Of a stretch of DNA of 64,000 nt, positions 9,918-63,849 are shown one piece after another (the stretch's first letter is position 1; each line of letters begins with the position of its first letter). Source of the stretch: Catajapyx aquilonaris. Its lineage: Eukaryota. Location: assembly GCA_000934665.2 (NCBI GenBank), contig KZ538315.1, positions 1 to 64,000 of the forward strand. Reading direction: 5' to 3'. The translations under genes and the position numbers were made by a program. Below the pieces are notes generated by a model, which saw only the letters and a program-made list of their open reading frames with translations, was not told the DNA's origin and did not search any database.

Positions 9918-12900
9918 TCAGGAGAAAAGTCCTCCAAACCAGACGACAACGACTGGCACCAAGTAAGTGGCCACTGCCTTCTCCAAAGACATCCTTCCTC
10001 CTCCCATCACAGTTGGGGTCGGTGCTCCTCTTCCTCCACCTGATGTTGCACCACCAGGGCCTTCCTTCACTTCAGGTGCACCTGTCGTACCGGCAAACTC
10101 GATGTCACCACTGCTGTCCATGTTGTTCCTTCCCTTTCCACCACCTCTCCCACCTCCTGGTCTGGGTTGTTTCCTGTCCTTCTTGTTTTTCTGCTTGGGT
10201 GGTACAGGTCCAGATGGAACAACAGGGCCTCCAAAGTCAATGTCGGTTGGGCCCATGCCGCTGCCTGAGCCTTCTTCACCATCACCTGACCCGCTACCAA
10301 ATTGCTCTTCTGGAAATTCACAAGAAATCCAATTAACCCAATTTGTCCAAGGACTGTTCATCAATCCACAAATATTAATTTTCAAAAACTGCATTGCCAT
10401 AAGTGATTATGCAGTGCCACATTATTGCATAAAAACAGGTACGCATGGCAGGGTTTGCAGCTGCAAAATGGGGCTTTATCAATATTCCGCCTACAAAAAA
10501 TACCTCATGTATAATCCAGATTCAACAGTTACGTTTCATAATGTATGGCCTGTTTCAACATTAATTTTAGAAGCAGCCTCTTACAAAAAGTAGTGTTTAA
10601 AATATTGTGCCTATGCACCTGTTGACAAAGCTGCTGTTAAACCTTCCTCAAAAGGGGACATCAATCTGTGCCAGCCAATTATTGATAATTTTTCACATGT
10701 CACTTTGATTCACTGCTCCATGGCACTTCATCCAAGTGCAAACTGCACTGCCAGACTAATATGCAAACAATTCGGGAAAGTGCCACATACATCAAGAGAG
10801 GGATGGGGGGGAAGGGGTAGGCAGTGTTCCCAATCAACAGCTCCAATCAATCCATATTTTGCAGCCCCACCTCGACTAGATATGAAAGTGCACCATTGGC
10901 CCTCACCGTCATCCATCCACTCAATGTCAACGCCAACGTAAGCCGAGTTGAGCCTGGTTGTGATGAGCTTGAGTGCATACAGCTGCTCGTTGAGGATAGA
11001 GCTAAAATGGTAACTGTCAGGATATCGGATTCCAGACCCTGTGGATGGCGATGATGGCAATGAGGATGATTCCAGTGGGTCGTATCGAGCTTTAGCCTGG
11101 CCATTCCAGCAATTGTCTTCATGAACTGGACTGGCTGCCACATCCTCATTGTTGCAGAGCTGGTACGGCAGGTTTCCCCAGAAGCCTTTCGTCAAGCGTA
11201 CCTTCTGCTTTATCTCCCTCACCAGTCGGTCCAGGCTTGCCACACCTCCCCCTCCGCCGCCGCCGCCGCCGCCGCCACCTCCTCCTCCCCCTCCCCCTCC
11301 ATTGCTGTTTCCACCTCCACCATTGTTGTTCTGACGCATGCCACTTCCTCTTCCAAACGGGTATGGCTCGAACCGCAGCTCTGTTGCTTCTCTCTTACCC
11401 AGCCGGGGTTTCCCACAACCATTGAAGACCTGAATTGGAAAAGTGTTCATGCATTCGTGCCATTTCTCAGCAGCTTAAGACTCACCTTTTGTGAGACATC
11501 ATTTCCATTCTCCTGGAAGTTCATGATGGCCTCTGATATCTTGATGTGAATAGGTTCCACCACCACCTCGATGTTGAATGGGCCCACCAATCTTTCTGAC
11601 ACAGACACGAGAGCATCTGGAAGCATTTCCAAACGTCAGGGTTCCACCCTTGATCTGATCCCATGGCGCATAATTGTATTTCCCTTGCTCCTCCCTTGCT
11701 TTTACCACACAATGGCTCAGAAATCAAATTTATCTTCCAAGTGAAAGCCTCCATTTTTCCATTAGGAAATTTGCCCACTACTTACCAACCATAACAAGAT
11801 TGCTCCCTTCAATTTTTGGACTGTCCTCACCTGTGAAGTTGTTCCAGCTGCTGTCCAACTGCGTGTGCTGCGTCAAGCAGCCCTTCATGACATTCACGCA
11901 GTAGCTGTTGCACGGCTTCAGTCCGGATAGTCCCTGACAGGCCGGACAGTTGCTCATCCTCGTCAGTGCCTTCCCGCAGTCCGCATTAGGCGCAACCTGA
12001 AACACCACAATAGGTTACATAAAAATTGTACCCACACCAGAAATGAAACCCCAGACATGATCAACTTTTATTTTTGCCTCCAAGCATCCCAAGGTGGAAT
12101 TTCTGGGTGGGTTTTTATGGGCCTTGTTAAGCGAGTCCATCATGCTGTAGTGGTGGTGACCTTCACCCTCCTTGTTGGAACATTCCTGAGGGACTTTGGT
12201 ATGGCTAAGGTGTGGGCGGGCGAGAAAGGGAAATCCGGCACCATAGAAAGGTGGTTTGGTTGTAATGGGCATTAGGTGGGTTGGGAGGTGGGGGGGCTTC
12301 CCTTGTTGGCACCAAAGGCATGCCGCAGCTTCAATCTCAGTAGGAGATGAGGCTTGGAGGCAGGTGGGGTGAGTCCGGCTGGCTGCTGGCTCAGGTTGGG
12401 GGTCCGCCTGAGTGCCTGTAACAAGCATCGGTGGGAGGCTGGAGGGGGCAGGATGGATGGACGGGGAGGGGCTCTCTGGAATGCAGGCGCCGGACGCCTC
12501 CCAATATAAAAGCCAGAAACTATGCACCCCACTTTCCGCAATTTCTCACGCTCCAGACCCTTCTTTTCATTCCCCCCCTTCAAACGGCAAGGTCTCTCTG
12601 ATTTTCACAGTCGACCTTTTTCGTTCAAATTGGACTTACCAGCAGAATCTTAGAGATGGTCTCCTTGGCCAGCGACAGTGCCTGGGCGAATGCGCGCGTG
12701 GCCACAAACGACCTCTTCACCTGCACAGACAGCTTCTTTGGTACGTCCCCAAAGGGCTTCAGCTCCTTCATGTGCTCACTCACGCACACCAAGTACCTGC
12801 AAAAAACGCAATAGCCGTCAGCAAATCCGCTATCGAATACACCTGGTGTGAAAATTGCGCCCTTTCTCACGACCCCCAAAAACCCATTGGATAAACATCT

Positions 12901-15900
12901 CTTATTGCGCCTATTCATTACAACCCACCAATTAATACCGTGCAATGAGAAAAAAAAGCGCGGTATTTACGATCTCTCCCTCAATCCCCCACCACCAATG
13001 ATCCACAGACCCAATTTCGATGCCCGGGGAATGTGGGTTTGGCATCAGCCTTGAAGTCCACCAAACTCTGAAAAAGAATCTGGCTCGGTGGTCTCTACTC
13101 AGAATTTGATACAAGGTCTAGGAAAAACGTTGTGGAATCTCGAACTGAAGCAAAAATCCTCCTCACGCGATAATCTTTTCCTCGTGTCCCCTTATTTACA
13201 TTCCTTTTTTTTAAACCTCTCTCCCCCCCCCAAGTAATTCGGGGCGTCCCTCGTTCCACCTGCCTGCATGCCACCTTTTATCGACAACCGGCATCGAGTT
13301 TGAAGGCGGAAAAAAAGGAAGAAAAAAGGTGGTGGTCTCTTGATTGGTCCCGTCCGCAGCAAAAAAAAAAACAAAAAAAAAAAACAAAAAAAAAAAGCGA
13401 CAGGGTGTGCACCAACTCATTCACTTCATCAATATTTTCCGATTTAAATATTGAAAATATTCATTAGGCTGTCACTGAAATTTTTTTTGTGTGATCGCAG
13501 TTGTGTACACCCTGTACAGGTGCAAGGCGAAAGGAAAATGCAGTTGAGGATCACACACACTATACAAAAAAAAAAAAAACTATTTTCCCAGCACGCAATC
13601 GGTTCCCTCCTGCCCCCACNNNNNNNNNNNNNNNNNNNNNNNNNNNNNNNNNNNNNNNNNNNNNNNNNNNNNNNNNNNNNNNNNNNNNNNNNNNNNNNNN
13701 NNNNNNNNNNNNNNNNNNNNNNNNNNNNNNNNNNNNNNNNNNNNNNNNNNNNNNNNNNNNNNNNNNNNNTCCCCCCCCCCCCCCCCCCCACTATAGACCA
13801 TCATGCGGTGCATTATGGATCCGGAGTGTCTATAAAGTAAGCCGGCGGGCTCCGATGGAACAAAATGGAAAAGAAGAGGCTCTGGGTCCTGAAGGAAAGG
13901 CATGTTAGACAGTGACGGATGGCCAGGCTATTGTCTGGAAAGCTCCTTTTTTTCTGGAATACCGGCGTGTGGCAAAGAGGGTGCATTATGAAAGTCACCG
14001 GAATCCATCTATGCCATCGCAATGTTCAAGAATGGGGGGAAAAAAGTGTGACAACACCACACTCAGCCATCAGAGATAAATAAATAAATACATATGATTT
14101 AGTAGTTGAGCTCACCTCTCATCGAACCGATACTGAGCGTTGAGCACAGTGAACATCTTCTGGTAGAGTGTGTTGAAGAATCCTTCCAAGGCGTCATCCA
14201 ACCTAACACGTCCTTTGACATAGTAGCTCTCAAGGGCCTCGAACAAGTCAGTGAACACGTACGCGTTCTGCTCGTACAGGATGCCATACGTCCGCTTGAA
14301 CATCTCGTGAAAGTCCTTCTTGGATGTAGCCAGCAGGTTCCGGAAAAATTCTGTCAAAAGAGAAACAATGAGCTCCATGAAATTTCTCGTTTGTGCCTTT
14401 AACATTACCGGTCTGGGGGGATTACCCCTAGCTTTATTTAACTTGTAGGTAATTCATGGCGGGATTCAGGCGCCAAAGGCTCCCGAAAAGAAAGGAATCC
14501 GATGCAATTTACGGCCATCATTAATCACCGCGGCCTCTGTGGCCCCTCATGTGAAAGCGCATGCCTTCCTCACATAATCCTTTGAGGCCTAATCGCACCA
14601 CCCATTGATCTGTTTCTGCGTTTTTCATCGGATTAGGGCAAGTGGCCCACAAGTGGCCAGTTCAGGGGACTCGAAACACTGCTGGCTAGTCATGCAGTCA
14701 TGCCAGATTTTCATTGGGGAAAAAACTGTGACATTTGCAAATTTCATATGCGAGTATTTACTGTTGTTGACTGCAAGCCATTAGTAATAATTAGGCCGGG
14801 TCCGCCCCGGGGCCAACCCCGTGCTAACTCTACCAAGAAAACACATGGGTTCCATGGACAATGCTTTATTGGACCTTCCAGGTCACCACCTTAGTACAGA
14901 CTCTCTTGACTCACTCAACTCTGGATGCCAACTCACTCTCCCCTTGCCAAAGCCAGGAAAACACTGCGCATGCCCCACCCACATCACATGACCAGAAGGG
15001 GGCGGGCTCATACAAACAGGCTATGTAGGGGTGGCCGTATTTCAGATCTCACCACTTTTGACGGCCAAGCAGTCAGGAGAACTTGGCCTTTTATTTTTAC
15101 AGAAATGTTTTTGGTGGTATGTTTTACAAATATTTCATAAATTCTGACAGGAAAATAATATGGAAACAGTTCATAACTGACGTAGACTTTCCTGCATATT
15201 TCTGCACTAAAAATAGGACAAGTCTTTTGCCGCCACGTCGCTCACCAAGCCGCGACTCTCCCTCCGAAACTAACAGGTTGAAAATTAATTTTCAAGCTCG
15301 GAATTTGCAAATGGGAAGGGTCGACTCCCCTTGCTGCAGGGCTCTTCTCCCATACTTTCCATCTGATCTCCATTAGACTTCGTTAGCTCTTACGAGAATT
15401 TCATTCCCAGGCGATTATGTGCGCTTTTCCACTATGCAACCTCTCGATTCCTCCTCCAAATCCATTACAAAAATCAACCCTCATTTTTTATATATAACGA
15501 TGGCCAAGACCGAATTTGGAGGTGACAGAGCCCTCGATTATTGGCTCCCTAAAAGCCCGTTCAAAGTCTTAGAGACTGGCCTTTAATTTCCCGTCCTAAG
15601 GCTTCTTTGGAGACTCTTTCAATTCGCAACCTCCTCGGAAGCACTTCCTCGAGGGGACCATCCGTGCTTTTCACCCAAGTAAGAGAAGGCCCGCCAAGTG
15701 GAAATCGAATTCGAGGGCTGCCCGAGAGACAATGTCTTCCAAGAAACGAGTCGAGGGATTAATCTGATTATGTGCAGGGCTCTTCTCCTGGAGATGATCG
15801 CTGCTGCCGACGGAAAAACTAGAAGATATACGAGAAGGGAACTGCTGAAACTGTCTAATTCCAGAAAAATCGGTGGTAATTATTATCCCGGGGTTGGTAA

Positions 15901-28500: not shown

Positions 28501-31500
28501 CACACCTTAACTTTCAAACCTAATGTCCCATTGTGATGTCGTCCCTGAGATGAGTTTTCTGACACTAATCTGCATCACACCCCACGCAGTTTACATGCGC
28601 ATATCAATGATTCCGTGCTGGTTACTCAAGGATATTGACTTGAGAGGAATTCAGAAACCCCAGTCATACCCTATAGATTTCCTTTCATATCCTTCACAAC
28701 CCCCACTTTTTGACTTTCCCCATCCCTTCTCAATAACGGAGGAGAATTCGCCAAATATTTGATCTGCCAGATAGCAGCATGAGGCAGAAAAGGAGTGGTT
28801 AGCTGAAGCCAAACAACTCCCCTGCAAAGTCAACTCTGTGATACCCACATCGGTCAGGTACAACCGGACAAAATCCTGGAGTGTTATATTACACTACCAC
28901 CTTCCAGGGAGGGAAAAAGAAAGGGGTCGTTGATACCTAGGGAACTATAGCCATGTTAGACACAGACGTAATTCCTCACGTCGTTATCTACAAGGCGTCG
29001 CTGGAAGGAGAAATGAATTGGGGAGGCTTCGAGAGAATTACCGTTGGCAGCCCTTGTCGCCAGGCGCAAAATTATAGAGGCAGCCAATGGGAAAATTGAA
29101 TTCTTCCAGACAAGTTGCATCCAGCAGCTACTTCTTATCGAGGATGGCAGTCAAAACCCTAGGGCCCCGTGTAGGCAATAATGCCCAATCTCCTGCGAAC
29201 TCACGGAATTCCCCAAAAAATCGTGTTTATGCTAATTCCACCCACCAAGTACTTTGGATGGGGATAGAAAAAAAAATATGCGCACACATTATAGAGGCTT
29301 GTTTGTTGCCGTTTACCATATGCAATGAAAAGTTTCTGCGCGAGATAGCGCTCGTTGCCAGTGATTAACGTGCCTCCATTCTGCTCTCATGAAAATCAAC
29401 TAATGACGTTCCTGATAACTATCCGTGGTGCTGTTGTCGGGATTAATAGCAGGCTATAATCCCGTAATTACCAACCATGCAGCATCATAGGATTACCGTC
29501 GCCGGTCACTCGTGCAAAGGTCCACACATGTTCTTGCACGAATTCTGAGTGGTTTTGGTCAACTTTGAACCCGGTGGCAACAAACACCTGCTGGGCGCAT
29601 TTTTGTATAACTTACTATAAATTCATAGCGAATACAAACATCAGCACCGAGTTATTTCAGTGCGAGAATCTCGTTACTCCAGAAGTGAAGGTGTGACCGC
29701 TGCTTCCATGCTTATGCGTACGTACCCTGCATAATGTAGATGCCAGGAAGTTCCTTTGACGTAGAGAATTTATATCTTCAGCCCTTATTCTCAAACCCAT
29801 TTACTTGCTTAATATAGCACTGTGCCTTTGTTGAAGGCTTGCCTTTTTAAAACGCTTCCAGCTGAATTCACCAAAATTGGGCACAGAAAGATTATTCCAG
29901 TCAGTTAGCTGTCACTTGGTGCCACATTGCTTCCTAAAGCATTAGCTTCCCAAATGTAAAATTAATTCCCCTGCTTCATTGTTTCCCGGACAAAAGGTGG
30001 GCGCATTCGTCCCCGTATCCATTTATACTGTATGTATACCTGTCACTGTCTTTTATAGAGAAGCAGGGAAATGGACGTCGAGCTCTGGCTGTAATTCTAT
30101 TCCTTCCTTTAAGACTTAAAACAATACGACTGTCATGTCACAGAGTATAATACTCTGTCCGTGTCTCTATAAAACTGCCAGATGAGTTCATCACAATTCC
30201 TACATTAAGAAATAATCCACCGCTCTTCATTGATTTATCATAAAACCTGCCTAAGCACATAGAGTACATGCATATCATGTGGTTGTTTACCGCCCTATTT
30301 TCCGTGGCATAAACTTACATCCGGGCTTGCATCACAATTCCCAAGCCCCACATAGCCCATCAACTTGATGTCCATATCGGTCCCCGCCGGCTTTCGGCGC
30401 CTCGTCGTTTACGACCCAGATAACGAAATATAGCTCTACAGCCGATAATTTGGTGCCAGTCGCATTTCTTAACCCCTCGGATCACACTTGACCCTGCGGA
30501 TAATTCCAGCTCACACTTTCACGGCTGCAAAAATCTTTTTATTTACTAACAACGCCACAAAAACACGGTTTGGCAGAACCAACGTCTCCAAACAGGCGGT
30601 TGAATTACGTCGAACGAATATATTCAATTTTTTTAAATGAATTTATTTGCCCAATTGGGGTTATTCCCCCATCTGGAGTTCCTGTTCAATGTCCGCCCTT
30701 ACAAGCCATAAAAGAGTGGAGTGGGAAAAACTGGGCTGGCATTTTGTAAGCATGGCTGACTGCTTATTTTTTTAAACACCCAAAATTCATTTTCAAAGCA
30801 TTCACTCATAATAGATATTAATATCTATGCATTTCCTGAATGACAAATGACACGACTTGTTGTGAAAACCGCAGTACGCACCATTATTTAAAATATTAGT
30901 ATCAGTCAACAAATGACCGCCCTTGATTTTATAGCGGTGATTCATACTCAGTGCGACAACAGTTATCATCGGCCCGATTTAATTCAGTGACACATTTATT
31001 GCCAACAGACAGTGCCGGTACATATTTCATCCTTCGAGATATGCATAGAATGTGCTTAACCCCCTTGTCTCATGCAAATCGTAGCCCATATTCGCCACTT
31101 CATCCATCACGCCCCAATACACATGATGCGTGGGCAACTGCCCCTCCTCGACCAAAGGAAGTTTTCATCTGGCGAAATAATGACGTCACAACAGTCTCTC
31201 CCCCCCTCTCCAAATCGCAATCTGGCACTCGTGAATTGAATGCCCTACCCAATTTGCAGTCATATCGCGAACTTAAAGTCGGAACCTTTGTCTCAGCCAT
31301 TACGTGACCTCCATAAGAATCATCTCTCTCTCTATATATATATGAAACGAAATCCCCTCAAGACTCATTGCGAAGAATATTCCGAGCATGCATGCAGTTT
31401 CGACGACCTCGCCCTTGCCAAATCATCCATCATCAAAGCATGCAAAAAAAAAAAAAAAAATGTGCCTATTCGTTCATCTCTCCTTATTTTTTCCACCAGC

Positions 31501-49563: not shown

Positions 49564-50175
49564 TGTCTCAAAGCAGTCAGTGTCCGTTTGGTACGGGCCG
49601 CCCTTGGTGGCTAGGAGTGTTGATCTGGCCGGGGTTGCCCGGGGGAGGAAGGCATGACCAGCCCGCGTGAGCTATACACACAGAGAGACTCCAGAGCACA
49701 ATAAACGCCCGCCTCTCTCGGACCGATTCTGCCGGGGAGGGACCAGCAGAGGTGAAGGGAGGAGGTCAGCGACACCTCTGAGCGCCATGTGAAGGCTCAT
49801 CCCACGCGCATCCACCATCGCGCATCCACCCTCCCATTGGCTGCCCTATCGACCAATACATCACCAGATACATTATACTATTAAATGCAAAATAAATGCA
49901 GCAAATATATTTGAGCAGGCAGTGTTGCCAGATCGCCATGACCTTGAGTGGCTGCGACCCCCCTCCAGTCGCCATACTATAAATCACCAATGAAGGCCCC
50001 CACAGAGCCTGCTTCTTTGGGAGGCTCGTAAATTCAAATCCTGGTTTATTTCCTGCCACGGTCGGCGTCTGCTTCCTTGCCTGGTATTATATTACGGGGA
50101 GGTGGACTTTGGCCTACTCTTTCAGCGGAGGCTAGAGGAGACGGACAGGGCTGCGTCGTAGATTGAGGACCAAGC
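49564..50175. promoter_or_regulatory. Divergent (head-to-head) promoter region, glypican / HDHD1-like
   Basis: 612 bp between opposite-strand ATGs. CCAAT boxes in both orientations (49836, 49853, 49987), TATAAAT at 49978, and CGCGCATCCACC twice (49805, 49819). Confidence 0.65.
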
Positions 50176-52724
50176 ATGTCGGGGGAATACCAGCCGGTGA
50201 CACATGTCATTTTCGACATGGATGGACTTCTTCTGGGTGAGTGGTTGTTGGTTGGCCTCTGTGGCACATGTGTTGCATTATGCTCATCATTGGAGTTCAT
50301 TTACACTACACTATATGCTGCAAACCACTAAAAGAGCATCACTTCTGAGTCTCCAATGTGCTCTTGTGATGCTTTTTTGTTGCTGAAAAGCATCACAAGA
50401 GCGTCAGTTCCATTGGAGACTCACAAGTGATGCTTGCAGTTTTCAGTGTAGTTGCCTGCGTATGTCCAGCGCATTCACGTACATGATGTGAAACTGGAGG
50501 TAATTTTATAGGTGTACTGTACCAACCACTACACAACGACGAGAGTTTGACCTGGAGTTTAGACTCACCTTGTGCATCAGTTTGGCATTTATTACAGTCT
50601 TGACAGTATTGCTGAATAATCAATTTGTCAAATATGCATGTGTGATACAATCGAAATGCCTCGGAAGCAGAGTGTAGCATAACAATATGATTGGTTCTCA
50701 TGGAGCTGCCGTTTTATGTGTAGAAGAGGTTGATCAAAATTGTCACCTTCAAAATTAAAGAGATAAGGACAATTTATGGGCAGATACACTCGTGGCACTC
50801 GAGTCTACAACATTATGATGGCAACCACTTATTCAAGCAGAAGGCCATAGTGAATGTTCTTATCAGAATATGTTTCTCGTATGCAGCTCGACTCGGAGGT
50901 TATATGAATCGCAAAATGGAGACACCTCAATTCAGAAGAGAGCATCTGCCTGTAATCATATGCATATGAATGACTCCACCAATGCATGCATATTTTTTTC
51001 TTGGAGTGTATCCAATTTGATGTTCTTCACCGGACAAACACATCATAAAGGCGCTCAATTGTGAGGATGAATCATCACAAAATTGGACTCCCTTGGTTGA
51101 AATGTCCCCTCACCCCACCTCATAAATCAATTTGCTCCAGTGACAGCCAACCCCTTGGTTCTTAATTATGTGGGAATTGTACAAACAAGACACTTACAGA
51201 CACAGAGAAGCTGTACACAGATGCTACCCAAGAGGTGTGCAACCCACACAACAAGGTGTACACTTGGGAGCTGAAGGCCCAGTGTATGGGTTTCACCGGA
51301 TTAGATTCAGCCAAAAGGATTACCTCTGCCCTGGAACTGCCGATGACACCAGAGGAATTCATGATGAAAGTGGCTGTTGAACACCAACGCCTGTTTCCCA
51401 CTTCCGAGATGCTCCCAGGTACATGGCTCTTTCTGACTCGATTGAGTTGTTGTTGATGTTGTTACAGACTCTGAGAGGTTATACATGGAAGCCACTCAGC
51501 AGATAGCAGCCAGGTATGGTAAGGAGTACACAATGGAACTCAAGTCCAAAGTCATGGGCCTGACCACAGATGAACTTGCAAAAGTTGTGACGGAAGAGCT
51601 GCAGTTGCCCCTCACCCCAGAGCAGTACAATTGTGAAAAGGCCAAACTCCATGTAGACATGATGCCCAATTGTCAAGTTATGACAGGTGAGGGGCCATTA
51701 GTGGGGACAGTGCAGTGAATCTACTTACAACCATATCATTGGCTTCCTATATTATTTTTGGGCCTTTCATTAACTTCGCTAGATAAAACTAAAAGTGGCT
51801 TTCCTAAGAGAAATTGTAAATATTCCAAAATTTTGACAGAAATATTGCAGGTAGTTTTCATAAGTCAATATCACATATGTCCAATTATAACAATAGCAGT
51901 AGAAGCATGTGGTGCAGAGTGTTTACATGGTAAGGCAGCCTTCAACATACATGCACAAGCCAAATTTTATGTACACGCGAAAATTTAAAACTCGTCAATT
52001 TTGAGATTTTTCCATACCATTCCCCGCCCACTCCTCTCCACTCCAAATCTACCCCACACATTCCCCTTGTAGCCCCATGAAAGCTTGAGTTGGATGCACA
52101 ATTTAGAACCCTGTTCTACAAACTGTGTCCACCACATGCATTCAAGGGAGGTGAGGGTCATGACCTAAATAGTGGCTCTCACATTGGATTCATGAATCTG
52201 GATGCATAATGTGAAAGAGCTTTGCATAATCCTCTTCTAATGCATTTAAATTTCAAATACAGGTGCTGAGCGTCTAGTCAAACATCTGCACAAATCTGGT
52301 GTTCCTATGGCAGTGGCAACCAGTAGCAGCAAAGAAAGCTTTGACCTGAAGGCCCAGAGACATGGCGAACTCTTCAAACTCTTTGATCATATTGTGATGG
52401 GCAGTTCTGACCCTGAGGTAAAGAGAGGCAAGCCCCATCCTGACATATATGAGGTCTGTCGGAAGCGATTTGCTAATGTCCCATCATCAGAGAAGGTCAG
52501 TTGAAGCATTGATAAGCAATTTTTAGATGCCAAAACAGATGTCTTTACAGTGTTTAGCATTTGAGGATTCACCAAATGGGGTCCAGTCTGCGAGGGATGC
52601 TAACATGCAAGTTGTGATGGTCCCAGACCCACGCCTAGATCCAAAGCTGATGGAAGGGGCCACCCAGGTGCTTAAGTCATTAGAAGACTTCAAGCCTGAG
52701 CTGTTTGGTCTGCCACCTTATTAA
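50176..52724 (+). CDS. HDHD1: HAD-family pseudouridine-5'-phosphatase (HDHD1/PUDP/GS1-like), 228 aa per isoform. Exons 50176-50236, [51200-51418 OR 51468-51686], 52263-52495, 52551-52724
   Basis: HAD motif [12 protein letters not shown](T/S)E, motif II AVATSS, motif [11 protein letters not shown], motif [12 protein letters not shown], and a family-typical C-terminus [15 protein letters not shown]. 61+219+233+174 = 687 nt in frame. Confidence 0.93.
50309..50448. repeat. Long fold-back hairpin / small TA-flanked MITE in HDHD1 intron 1
   Basis: Inner perfect 17-bp stem (50360-50376 / 50386-50402) plus an outer 24-bp stem with one mismatch (50335-50358 / 50411-50434). Degenerate ends TA|CACT...AGTG|TA. 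Confidence 0.75.
51200..51418 (+). CDS. HDHD1: HDHD1-like exon 2a (cap region, variant A)
   Basis: ttacag|AC...CCA G|gtacat; 219 nt, phase 1-1. Encodes [73 protein letters not shown]. Confidence 0.9.
51468..51686 (+). CDS. HDHD1: HDHD1-like exon 2b (cap region, variant B)
   Basis: ttacag|AC...ACA G|gtgagg; 219 nt, phase 1-1. Encodes [73 protein letters not shown]. Confidence 0.88.
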
Positions 52725-52859
52725 TGGATAGAAATTTCCAACGTGACTGCCATAAAGGGTACAATGTCGTAACAGATAAAAGTGACATATTTTAACCCAG
52801 AAGCACTGTTGTTTTATTTACTTGTATCTACACGAACAGGTGAGGAACTCCGGTAATGA

Positions 52860-54286
52860 CTAGGACTTTTGAGCCAAGGTCTCCATTGTCTGGAGAACTT
52901 TGTCAGCATCCATGTTGTCTAGGGACATGCTGCTTTCTTTCCCCATCTCTAGAGAAAATAAGAAATGGGAACATCAGCAAAACTACTTCACATTGGCTAT
53001 TAGATCTAACGTTTTGCATGGGTAGTTCACAGAAAATCTTTTTAAAAGGTCACACTGAATTACATTTGGACCACTGAATGTAAGTGTAGTAGACCAGTTA
53101 ACCTGGCTATTTTCAATTTACCAACCAACCCAATTTGTCTGTGTGAATTCCGTTTATTGGCCACTGTCTGGTGCACTCTCAGATTGGACAGTTTAAGGCT
53201 GTAACATCATTAAGCTATCCCTTACACTGCACCGGCCGATAAATGTAAAGGTATTATTATTATCATCAGTCTGCATTAGCTCTGGCACATGCAAAAGGTT
53301 CTCAATGCAAGTTTGCCATCAACTTTGTCCTACACACTTAATCAAGCAGAGTTCAATCATTATGGGGCAGATTCACAAAAGCAAATTATGCAAAACATCT
53401 TGTATAGGTACCTGTATTGACAAATTATGATCAGACATAATTATAACAGATTTCCAGTTGATTAAAACTTGCTTATGAAGTAATTCTACATTACTACACA
53501 AGTAGATGAGAGTCACTGGAATTAATAAAATACTAGGGACATTTAAAAATCTTGAACTGAAACCCACCATATCGGGCAAACATCCGTGGCTTGACTCCAC
53601 TGCACTCTCGGATCAGGATGGGGAATTTGGGGTTGTTCTTCTTGACCCCTACATAGTGTTTCTCCACAAAGTCCCTGAAACAGAAACACAAATATCAATA
53701 TAATGCTCCATCCTGAAACCATCTGAGTTCATGCACACTTTATGGTTAGTCACTGACAAAAAGTGGGCCTTGCTAATCAAGTCAGTGGCACCAATAATAT
53801 ATTGCGCGTTCATTATATTCCTAGCTGGCACCCCAATATTTTGGAAAAAGCTGTGATGTATATGAATGAATGAAGGATATTCCTAGATGCCATTTACACA
53901 GCAACAAGTAACCAAACTTGTTTGAATCATCTGATTTCAGGTGAACATGGTTGGCAGGCATTAAAATGAATACCACGACAATACGAATGTTAATCCTTTT
54001 TGACACGAAATCGAATTAGCAACAATATGGCTTGTCAATCCGATCCTAATGGGCCAATTTGGTTTCTCATTGCTCTGTAAATGATTTTCAAAAACCCGCT
54101 TGGGCATCCGCTTGATTAACTTTGTAGAATCAGGGATGAAAGTCTGTACCTTCCCGACAGCAAAGAGTGTCCCCTTCCCATCTCCCAAACCCACCTGACT
54201 CCCTTGCTGGCCTCTCCCTTCTGGCAGAGATGGATCCTCAGCTCTTTCAAGTGAGGAGCGAATTTCAGAGCCTTCGAAGTCGCCAT
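52860..54286 (-). CDS. NDUFA2: NADH:ubiquinone oxidoreductase subunit A2 (B8), 95 aa. Exons 54286-54195, 53674-53568, 52948-52860
   Basis: Spliced product [95 protein letters not shown] carries the ELRIHLCQ...GVRDF...PILIRECS signature. 288 nt in frame; AATAAA on - at 52813-52818. Confidence 0.95.

Positions 54287-61415: not shown

Positions 61416-63849
<2,434 letters not shown>

What the first reader, a model, noticed from the sequence alone, without database searches (positions are those of the whole stretch)
51200..51686. Cap-swapping HAD phosphatase: two tandem, probably mutually exclusive exons in the HDHD1/GS1-like gene
Seen: two consecutive exons of exactly 219 nt, both phase 1-1 with GT/AG sites and no stops. 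They align without gaps at 28/73 identical residues (~38%, counted by hand). Either one joined to exons 1, 3 and 4 gives a complete 228-aa enzyme; including both would duplicate the segment. Known: in C1-cap HAD hydrolases the helical cap inserted right after motif I (DxD) closes over the active site and largely sets substrate specificity, while motifs I-IV lie in the core. Here the core motifs sit in the shared exons and the duplicated exon covers the cap. Inference: one gene makes two phosphatases with a common catalytic core and exchangeable caps. 2a ([17 protein letters not shown]) looks closer to canonical pseudouridine-5'-phosphatase as I recall it; 2b may act on a different substrate. 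Deep divergence with intact frame and length suggests long-term selection on both. I know of no description of this arrangement but could not search for one.
Basis: partly seen in the sequence, partly recalled or inferred. Interest (0 to 1): 0.88.

Follow-up and report, generated by a model that had tools for sequence, protein, structure and literature searches.

The report
Alternative cap exons in pseudouridine phosphatase gene
An animal gene for pseudouridine-5'-phosphatase carries two tandem, equally long copies of the exon that encodes the enzyme's lid domain; fruit flies are already known to use such a pair as alternatives, so this is a further example, not a new kind of system.

Summary
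Exons 51200-51418 and 51468-51686 are each 219 nt, phase 1-1, AG/GT-flanked and open. They are 38% identical (BLASTP E 5e-18). Either one gives a 228-aa HDHD1A/PUDP/Gs1l-type phosphatase. Each encodes residues 21-94, almost exactly the solved human cap (Asp21-Ala89).

A spliced 912-nt transcript contig joins exon 1 > 2a > 3 > 4 and skips 2b. Use of 2b could not be tested.

2b is not decaying. It keeps its frame, its splice sites, a four-helix fold (TM 0.85 to human HDHD1A) and a shorter tree branch than 2a.

The arrangement is not new. In Drosophila montana Gs1l both single-exon isoforms were cloned (Hopkins 2018). NCBI lists matching isoform pairs for a stick insect. Five cockroach-like metagenome loci carry the same 219-nt pair. 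The exons are separated by 49 nt here, 44-51 nt in those loci and about 39 nt in D. montana, which suggests exclusion by an intron too short to splice.

The idea that 2b acts on a different substrate is not supported. Both caps keep Glu23, Tyr26, Tyr41, Lys46 and Met50, the residues that recognise pseudouridine monophosphate (ΨMP) in the human enzyme.

Verdict: a new member of a known kind, of modest interest.

The parts
50176..50236 (+). Exon 1, coding part (61 nt). Met1 to Leu20 plus the first base of codon 21. Holds HAD motif I (Asp14-x-Asp16-Gly). The transcript contig starts at 50027, so the 5'UTR reaches at least that far.
50237..51199 (+). Intron 1 (963 nt, GT..AG). Contains a MITE-like nested inverted repeat at about 50305-50452 and, at 51101-51114, a 14-nt stretch 93% complementary to the 2b donor.
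   Evidence: (joint 50236>51200)
51200..51418 (+). Exon 2a (219 nt, phase 1-1). Cap domain version A, residues 21-94. Ends ..[10 protein letters not shown]. Weak donor GTACAT. Present in the transcript contig.
51419..51467 (+). Mini-intron of 49 nt between the two cap exons. If retained it gives an in-frame TGA after 13 codons and a frameshift.
51468..51686 (+). Exon 2b (219 nt, phase 1-1). Cap domain version B. Open frame, consensus donor GTGAGG, T-rich acceptor. Skipped by the only transcript contig available.
51607..51695 (+). Predicted hairpin. A 10-bp stem pairs 51607-51616 (inside exon 2b) with 51686-51695 (the last exon base plus donor positions +1 to +9). It would mask the 2b 5' splice site. 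Single-sequence prediction only.
51687..52262 (+). Intron between 2b and exon 3 (576 nt).
   Evidence: joint 51418>52263 skips it together with 2b
52263..52495 (+). Exon 3 (233 nt). Core domain with Thr113, Lys123 and Lys150 (matching human Lys149). Pfam Hydrolase E 6e-10.
52496..52550 (+). Intron 3 (55 nt). It is spliced out in the transcript contig, so introns of 55 nt are spliceable in this organism.
52551..52724 (+). Exon 4, coding part (174 nt including TAA). Holds motif IV, Glu176-Asp177 (matching human 175/176). The transcript contig runs on to 52800 (3'UTR).

Best explanation
This is an animal orthologue of pseudouridine-5'-phosphatase (HDHD1A/PUDP, insect Gs1l). The single exon that encodes the four-helix C1 cap has been duplicated in tandem.

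The two copies are most likely used as alternatives. Exon 1 is spliced either to 2a or to 2b, and the chosen exon is spliced to exon 3. This yields two 228-aa enzymes with one catalytic core and different caps.

Exclusivity is most likely enforced by the 49-nt spacer between the copies. It leaves too little room between the 2a donor and a branch point for 2b, so the two exons are rarely joined to each other. If the spacer is retained, it brings a stop codon.

In the one sample available, the 2a form is the form seen. A predicted hairpin over the otherwise stronger 2b donor may explain why.

Both caps keep the residues that recognise the pseudouridine base. They differ mostly in the outer half of the cap (helices 3-4). 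Both isoforms are therefore probably ΨMP phosphatases that differ in kinetics, stability or regulation, not in substrate.

Shown: the gene model, the homology, exon = cap, the 2a-only mRNA, and the same arrangement in insects.
Inferred: use of 2b, the steric mechanism, the hairpin, and the functional difference.
For: - Gene model and duplicate exons.
- Family: exon 3 matches Pfam Hydrolase/HAD_2. In one search, 104 proteins had E <= 1e-5 among 163 candidates; those that carry a name are almost all called pseudouridine-5'-phosphatase, and the best is 68% identical. Both cap exons hit human HDHD1A structures 9m7l/3l5k at chain residues 20-91.
- Exon = cap: the human cap is Asp21-Ala89 (PMC12212127 section 4 passages). 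Window numbering is identical up to residue 123.
- mRNA: one 912-nt contig with 0 mismatches carries joints 50236>51200, 51418>52263 and 52495>52551, all GT..AG.
- 2b looks functional. It has an open frame and good splice sites. E23/Y26/Y41/K46/M50 are kept. Its four-helix model has pLDDT 79 with helices at the same places as 2a, whose pLDDT is 89. The best fold matches are 3l5k and 9m7l, TMq 0.85/0.84, rmsd 1.0/1.3 A. Its terminal branch is 0.36 against 0.57 for 2a. It is more identical than 2a to 24 of 36 relatives' caps, less to 9, equal to 3 (my count from the lists).
- Precedent: in D. montana both single-exon forms were cloned, and 9 of 12 long clones retained the spacer. Bacillus rossius X1/X2 are both 227 aa and differ only within residues 21-91. 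In gene predictions, Blattella, Timema and Clunio carry both caps back to back, as do 10 of the 150 listed representatives.
- Short spacer conserved: 49 nt here, 44-51 nt in loci L001, L002, L007, L008 and L009, and about 39 nt in D. montana (my count from Fig. S2).
- Retention gives a stop codon.
Against: - No RNA evidence for 2b. The only contig over the gene bridges across it, so 2b is at best a minor form in that sample.
- The same gene has a 55-nt intron that is spliced. The 'too short' threshold would therefore have to lie between 49 and 55 nt in this organism, which is not shown.
- One exon of the pair can be lost. In 3 of 5 cockroach-like loci the first cap exon is broken (L001 has stops; L007 and L009, which are identical over the stretch, have a frameshift).
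- The hairpin is weakly supported (z -1.70; 12 of 200 shuffles fold as well) and has no comparative support.
- Whether this duplication is the same event as the insect one is unresolved.
Confidence: 0.6

Rival explanations
1. 2b is an unused duplicate (a silent or decaying pseudo-exon). The gene makes only the 2a enzyme in this organism.
For: The only transcript contig skips 2b. In related insect-like loci one member of the pair is broken in 3 of 5 loci, so loss of one copy does happen.
Against: 2b has no stop or frameshift in 219 nt. It has a consensus donor and a better pyrimidine tract than 2a. It keeps all five critical base-binding residues. It has a shorter terminal branch than 2a and higher identity than 2a to 24 of 36 relatives. 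It folds as an HDHD1A-like cap. Identity between the copies is highest at codon position 2 and lowest at position 3.
Confidence: 0.2
2. The exons are alternatives, and the 2b cap redirects the enzyme to a different substrate.
For: In C1-cap HAD enzymes the cap carries the specificity residues (PMC12212127 section 8 passage). 2b matches human HDHD1A less well than 2a does (34 vs 49 bits). The copies are only 14 of 43 identical over residues 52-94. In other, unnamed relatives (P0120, P0133) the second cap has lost Glu23 and Lys46, so re-targeting may occur elsewhere.
Against: 2a and 2b are identical at E23, Y26, Y41, K46 and M50, and both have Thr at position 30. They differ only at position 49 (Cys vs Val), where the human V49A mutant keeps 89% efficiency. 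Hopkins et al. reached the same view for the fly isoforms by homology modelling.
Confidence: 0.12
3. Both exons are normally included together, giving a 301-aa enzyme with two caps.
For: 219 nt is a multiple of three, so co-inclusion stays in frame. Automatic gene predictions in other species often include both.
Against: The transcript contig joins 2a directly to exon 3. In D. montana only 3 of 12 long clones lacked the spacer, and the authors suspected them to be artefacts. No solved HAD structure with two tandem C1 caps turned up among the fold hits.
Confidence: 0.03

Closest known systems
Drosophila montana Gs1l exons 2 and 3 (Hopkins et al. 2018, Sci Rep 8:7577, PMC5953924; I read the abstract, passages, section 8 and supplement 1 Fig. 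S2)
   Same: Same gene family. Two adjacent exons of equal length encode the cap (residues 25-94 in their numbering). Both single-exon isoforms were cloned. A tiny spacer intron brings a stop codon when retained. The core is shared.
   Different: A different and distant animal. The fly's second cap has Arg at position 46, whereas both window caps have Lys. The fly spacer is about 39 nt against 49 nt here. The authors did not frame it as HAD cap swapping or as steric exclusion.
NCBI isoform pairs of insect pseudouridine-5'-phosphatase (Bacillus rossius redtenbacheri X1/X2, P0041/P0042; Periplaneta americana X1/X3, P0011/P0008)
   Same: The Bacillus isoforms are both 227 aa and differ only within residues 21-91 (23 of 73 identical in the cap). 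This is the same swap as 2a/2b.
   Different: These are annotation only; no study was found. Periplaneta X3 starts inside the first cap exon and lacks motif I.
Human HDHD1A/PUDP (PDB 3L5K, 9M7L/9M7M; Seo et al. 2025, PMC12212127)
   Same: Same fold, and the same numbering of the catalytic and base-binding residues. Both window caps align to chain residues 20-91.
   Different: No alternative second cap is reported in the passages I read. Human position 30 is Phe, where both window caps have Thr.
Mutually exclusive exons enforced by a branch point too close to the upstream donor (alpha-tropomyosin exons 2/3; recalled, not checked here)
   Same: Two homologous neighbouring exons separated by an intron too short to be removed.
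   Different: The mechanism is only inferred here. This organism splices a 55-nt intron in the same gene.

Membership tests
HAD superfamily phosphatase with C1 cap | Motif I DxDG at the N-terminus | tested here: met
   Asp14-Met-Asp16-Gly in exon 1
HAD superfamily phosphatase with C1 cap | Motifs II-IV (Thr/Ser, Lys, acidic pair) in the Rossmann-like core | tested here: met
   Thr113, Lys150 and Glu176-Asp177 lie in exons 3 and 4. Pfam Hydrolase E 6e-10 and HAD_2 E 1.7e-7 on exon 3.
HAD superfamily phosphatase with C1 cap | Four-helix cap inserted directly after motif I | tested here: met
   Both exon products are modelled as four helices at the same positions. The 2b model matches the 3l5k cap at TMq 0.85, rmsd 1.0 A, although the Foldseek E-value is only 4.6e-3 for this 72-residue query. 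A fold search was not run for 2a.
Pseudouridine-5'-phosphatase (HDHD1A/PUDP/Gs1l) | Closest sequence relatives are members of the family | tested here: met
Pseudouridine-5'-phosphatase (HDHD1A/PUDP/Gs1l) | Base-recognition residues Glu23, Tyr26, Tyr/Phe41, Lys46, Met50 (human mutagenesis, PMC12212127 sections 5-6) | tested here: met
   Present in both 2a and 2b. The numbering offset was checked against the alignments.
Pseudouridine-5'-phosphatase (HDHD1A/PUDP/Gs1l) | Selective hydrolysis of ΨMP | not testable with these tools
   Needs an enzyme assay of both isoforms.
Mutually exclusive exon pair from tandem exon duplication | Adjacent exons of equal length and phase that are homologous | tested here: met
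   219 nt each, phase 1-1, BLASTP E 5e-18
Mutually exclusive exon pair from tandem exon duplication | Each exon occurs alone in mature mRNA | tested here: inconclusive
   The 2a-only form is seen. 2b is not covered in the single run available, which is kept as contigs. No further run could be searched.
Mutually exclusive exon pair from tandem exon duplication | The two exons are not joined to each other | tested here: inconclusive
   The one contig joins 2a to exon 3. No read-level data were available.

The most novel reading that the evidence does not exclude
The cap-exon pair with its spacer of about 40-50 nt is an old, or repeatedly re-invented, device of animal pseudouridine phosphatase genes. 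The spacer is kept too short to splice, so exactly one cap is chosen. A hairpin over the 2b donor sets the default. The two caps keep the same base-recognition residues but differ in helices 3-4, which tunes cap closure (kinetics, temperature dependence or regulation) and leaves the substrate unchanged. This would fit the cold-acclimation shift between isoforms reported in D. montana.
Probability: 0.3. Interest if true: 0.5.

Novelty: new member of a known kind. Interest (0 to 1): 0.3.

Why it matters
The finding gives a clean example of alternative splicing that swaps exactly one structural module (the lid of an enzyme) on a fixed catalytic core. The exon borders coincide with the domain borders of a solved structure.

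The comparison made here adds three points that I did not find stated in the papers I searched:
- The same architecture (two 219-nt exons, then a 39-51-nt spacer) occurs in flies, in cockroach-like insects and in this more distant animal.
- Both caps keep the ΨMP recognition residues.
- One member of the pair decays in some lineages.

For annotation, it explains why gene predictors produce 300-aa 'double-cap' proteins in this family.

Tried and rejected
- RNA evidence. The look-up of sequencing runs listed no holder on record as RNA. It listed one run of unknown kind (X1). Laying it gave contigs only, and 2b is without cover. This says nothing about whether 2b is silent.
- Word-based search with 2b among longer proteins: none at E <= 0.001 among 47 candidates. 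The database does not hold this organism's protein at all (best exon-3 hit 68%), so this is uninformative.
No whole genome is held for the window. Hatje & Kollmar 2013 is not held, so I could not check whether Gs1l is in their list of mutually exclusive exons.
- Organism. An MCM7 exon from the window is 55-64% identical to vertebrates, insects, ticks and crustaceans alike. The taxon stays unresolved beyond 'animal'.
- Age of the duplication. In the cap tree (103 rows, 74 columns) 2a sits with polyneopteran first exons at SH-aLRT 82-86 and 2b is unresolved. By pairwise scores 2a is nearer the first cap in 13 of 14 double-cap relatives, but 2b is nearer the second in only 6 of 14. An AU test run after dropping five long or gappy rows (98 rows) does not reject 2a+2b as one clade (p 0.549, constrained tree 2.08 lnL better). 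C-terminal motifs did not separate the types.
- Third cap copy. tblastn of eight relatives against the whole window found only 2a and 2b. A weak hit at 30534-30707 (E 0.05) does not look cap-like when translated.
- Rfam scan of the window: 0 matches. The 49-nt spacer has no special fold (z 0.08).
- Literature. The searches found nothing on cap-exon swapping in HAD enzymes. One search (mutually exclusive + haloacid dehalogenase + cap domain + alternative splicing) returned 0 papers.
Full report
**1. The observation**

The region was read and the gene model computed.
- Exon 1: 50176-50236.
- Exon 2a: 51200-51418.
- Exon 2b: 51468-51686.
- Exon 3: 52263-52495.
- Exon 4: 52551-52724.

All introns are GT..AG. 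Exons 2a and 2b are each exactly 219 nt, phase 1-1 and open. A 49-nt intron separates them. Either exon gives a 228-aa protein. Including both gives 301 aa in frame, and skipping both gives 155 aa in frame.

The two exon products align without gaps. 29 of 74 residues are identical when split codons are counted. BLASTP gives 27/71 identical, E 5e-18. Nucleotide identity is 113/219; it is highest at codon position 2 (48/73) and lowest at position 3 (29/73).

**2. What the gene is**

Exon 3 matches Pfam Hydrolase (E 6e-10) and HAD_2. Exon 4 and exon 2b match HAD_2 weakly, below the curated cut-off. Exon 2a matches nothing in Pfam at E <= 1.

A search with exon 3 among longer proteins gave 104 proteins at E <= 1e-5 among 163 candidates. 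Those that carry a name are almost all called pseudouridine-5'-phosphatase. They come from insects, ticks and some vertebrates, and the best is 68% identical. The organism's own protein is not in that database.

Both cap exons hit the human enzyme's solved structures (9m7l/9m7m, 3l5k) over chain residues 20-91. 2a scores 49 bits (E 4e-12) and 2b scores 34 bits (E 3e-7).

The catalytic residues lie in the shared exons:
- Asp14 and Asp16 in exon 1.
- Thr113, Lys123 and Lys150 in exon 3.
- Glu176 and Asp177 in exon 4.

The organism is an animal that I could not place. An MCM7 exon from the same window is 55-64% identical to vertebrates, insects, ticks and crustaceans alike. No whole genome is held for the window.

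**3. The exon is the cap**

Seo et al. 2025 (PMC12212127) define the human cap as Asp21-Ala89, between catalytic segments 3-20 and 90-228 (passages of section 4). I read the abstract, sections 5 and 6, and the passages on 'cap domain'.

Window numbering equals human numbering up to residue 123. The duplicated exon encodes residues 21-94. Its 5' border is therefore the cap's N-terminal border, and its 3' border lies about five residues beyond the cap's end.

AlphaFold models of the two exon products, each built from a 38-row alignment, give four helices at the same positions:
- 2a: helices 2-16, 22-28, 33-43 and 50-64; pLDDT 88.6.
- 2b: helices 3-15, 22-28, 33-43 and 50-64; pLDDT 79.3.

The best fold matches of the 2b model are 3l5k and 9m7l (TMq 0.85 and 0.84, rmsd 1.0 and 1.3 A over 65 columns). 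The Foldseek E-values are only 5e-3 to 9e-3 because the query is short.

**4. RNA evidence**

One public run holds the stretch (kind not on record, kept as contigs). Laid on 49900-53100, a 912-nt contig with no mismatches joins 50236>51200, 51418>52263 and 52495>52551.

So a spliced mRNA with 2a alone exists, and it bridges across 2b. Exon 2b has no cover in these contigs. Contigs drop minor variants, so this does not show that 2b is silent.

**5. Is 2b alive?**

Several results argue that it is.
- It has no stop or frameshift. Its donor is consensus (CAG|GTGAGG), against the weak CAG|GTACAT of 2a. Its acceptor tract is the richest in pyrimidines of the four in the gene.
- It is identical to 2a at every residue that human mutagenesis showed to be needed for ΨMP (see section 7).
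- In the cap tree its terminal branch is shorter than that of 2a (0.36 vs 0.57).
- Against the same 36 relatives it is more identical than 2a in 24 cases, less in 9 and equal in 3. The means are about 37% and 34% (my arithmetic on the lists).

A long-dead exon would not show this pattern. A recent loss of use cannot be excluded.

**6. The arrangement elsewhere**

*(a) Literature.* Hopkins et al. 2018 (PMC5953924) studied Drosophila montana Gs1l. I read the abstract, passages, section 8 and supplement 1 Fig. S2.
- They cloned variants 1/2/4 and 1/3/4 of identical length.
- They also cloned long variants with both exons. 9 of 12 long clones retained the intron between the exons, which brings a stop codon. 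They suspected the other 3 to be artefacts.
- The alternative segment covers residues 25-94 in their numbering.
- They modelled it on human HDHD1A and concluded that both short forms should work like HDHD1A.
- From their Fig. S2 I count the retained intron as about 39 nt. This is my count from printed text, and line breaks could shift it slightly.

*(b) Annotation.*
- Bacillus rossius isoforms X1 and X2 are both 227 aa and differ only within residues 21-91.
- Periplaneta X1 and X3 share the core and carry different caps.
- Gene predictions for Blattella (304 aa), Timema (310 aa) and Clunio (329 aa) contain both caps back to back.

*(c) Exhaustive phmmer search with 2b.* Against 1.84 billion representatives there were 318 proteins at E <= 1e-3. 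Of the 150 listed, 17 have more than one cap-like stretch. Ten are back-to-back double caps and seven are whole-gene fusions.

*(d) Genomic loci.* A scan of metagenome contigs with exon 3 returned 80 loci. Five of them (L001, L002, L007, L008, L009) have exon 3 at 66-69% identity and caps closest to those of Blattella. All five carry two cap exons in tandem.
- The second exon is 219 nt, AG/GT-flanked and intact in 5 of 5.
- The first exon is intact and 219 nt in 2 of 5 (L002, L008) and broken in 3 of 5. L001 has stops. L007 and L009 have a frameshift; they are identical over the stretch, so this is at most two independent cases.
- The spacer is 44-51 nt.

Most other loci have a single cap contiguous with the core.

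**7. Same or different substrate?**

In human HDHD1A the uracil of pseudouridine is held by cap residues Glu23, Tyr26, Phe30, Tyr41, Lys46, Val49 and Met50. Mutagenesis gave these catalytic efficiencies relative to wild type:

| Mutant | Efficiency |
|---|---|
| E23A/D/K | not detectable |
| E23Q | 0.010% |
| Y26A | 0.013% |
| K46A | 1.4% |
| K46E | 0.010% |
| Y41A | 0.38% |
| M50A | 1.1% |
| F30A | 21% |
| Y41F | 77% |
| V49A | 89% |

At those seven positions the window caps read:
- 2a: E, Y, T, Y, K, C, M.
- 2b: E, Y, T, Y, K, V, M.

The caps are 15/31 identical over residues 21-51 and 14/43 over residues 52-94. The divergence therefore sits mainly in helices 3-4, away from the base pocket. 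A difference in kinetics, cap dynamics or stability remains open.

Two asides from the same comparison:
- Most insect second caps have Arg46 and often Leu50.
- Two unnamed relatives (P0120, P0133) have second caps without Glu23 and Lys46, so re-targeting may occur in other lineages.

**8. How exclusivity could work**

219 is a multiple of three, so a frameshift cannot police co-inclusion. The conserved feature is the tiny spacer: 49 nt here, 44-51 nt in the cockroach-like loci and about 39 nt in D. montana.

With a branch point 15-35 nt upstream of the 2b acceptor, only about 14-34 nt would remain between it and the 2a donor. This is the classical steric-hindrance situation (alpha-tropomyosin; recalled, not checked). 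Retention of the spacer gives TGA after 13 codons. That fits the fly result that long clones mostly retain the spacer.

One caution applies. The 55-nt intron 3 of this same gene is spliced, so the margin is small and the mechanism is an inference.

**9. A possible switch (weak evidence)**

The 9-mer complementary to the 2b donor occurs 4 times in the 64-kb window, against 0.58 expected. Three of these four lie in this gene:
- in intron 1 at 51106-51114,
- inside exon 2b at 51608-51616,
- at the donor itself (51686-51694, on the other strand).

Folding 51595-51710 and 51090-51710 puts a 10-bp stem (51607-51616 with 51686-51695) in both the minimum-energy and the centroid structures. The stem covers donor positions -1 to +9. 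The z-score of the 116-nt fold is only -1.70, and 12 of 200 shuffles fold as well. There is no comparative support, and I noticed the motif after the fact.

If the stem is real, it would mask the stronger 2b donor and make 2a the default.

**10. Age of the duplication**

This is unresolved.
- Exon 2a groups with the first exons of stick insects and cockroach at SH-aLRT 82-86, and 2b sits in a polytomy.
- By pairwise scores, 2a is nearer the first cap in 13 of 14 double-cap relatives, while 2b is nearer the second cap in only 6 of 14.
- An AU test does not reject 2a+2b as sister copies (p 0.549).

A single old duplication and independent duplications in different lineages both fit the data.

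**11. Verdict**

In this organism only the 2a form is shown. The arrangement is already published for Drosophila and annotated in other insects, so this is a new member of a known kind. The 'different substrate' idea is not supported.

The conserved mini-spacer, the retention of the ΨMP recognition residues in both caps, and the occasional decay of one copy are modest additions. Searches that found no paper framing this as HAD cap swapping.

Noticed in passing
window 51101-51114, 51607-51616 and 51686-51695: The 2b donor (G|GTGAGGGGC) has two upstream complements. One lies in intron 1 (14 nt, 93% complementary). One lies inside exon 2b (a 10-bp stem present in the minimum-energy and centroid folds). 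The 9-mer occurs 4 times in the window against 0.58 expected, and 3 of the 4 are in this gene. This may be donor masking or competing structures.
   Followed up: partly
window 50305-50452 (intron 1): Nested inverted repeats (24-nt arms 96% complementary, plus a 17-nt perfect palindrome) that look like a MITE. Two other contigs of run X1 match 50359-50402 and continue with unrelated sequence, so it is a dispersed, transcribed repeat.
   Followed up: partly
window 50472-50709 (intron 1): A 238-nt low-depth contig of run X1 lies wholly inside intron 1 with no mismatches. It could be unspliced pre-mRNA or a separate small transcript.
   Followed up: no
window about 10731-14453, minus strand: Glypican gene exons (Pfam Glypican E 1.5e-19 at 14115-14453 and E 4.8e-19 at 10731-11474). 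The latter exon carries a long Gly run.
   Followed up: partly
window 61570-63002, plus strand: Start of an MCM7 gene (Pfam MCM_N E 2.4e-13, MCM_OB E 1.6e-9). Its best database matches are only 55-64% identical, spread over vertebrates and arthropods.
   Followed up: partly
window about 13.6 kb and 23.7-24.1 kb: Runs of N (assembly gaps), seen as X runs in the ORF listing.
   Followed up: no
L001, L007, L009 (first cap exon); L002, L008 for comparison: In cockroach-like loci the first cap exon is broken in some (stops in L001; a 10-nt shortening with frameshift and Glu23>Lys in L007 and L009). The second exon and the mini-intron stay intact. This shows lineage-specific loss of one alternative cap.
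   Followed up: partly
P0120 and P0133 (unnamed representatives): Their second caps are open and similar to each other (a strongly supported clade on a long branch) but lack Glu23 and Lys46. They are candidates for a cap with a truly different substrate.
   Followed up: no
window 52796-52949: A further X1 contig (383 nt, laid on the minus strand) overlaps the end of the gene's 3'UTR and continues with unrelated sequence. It could be a longer UTR variant or a convergent neighbouring transcript.
   Followed up: no
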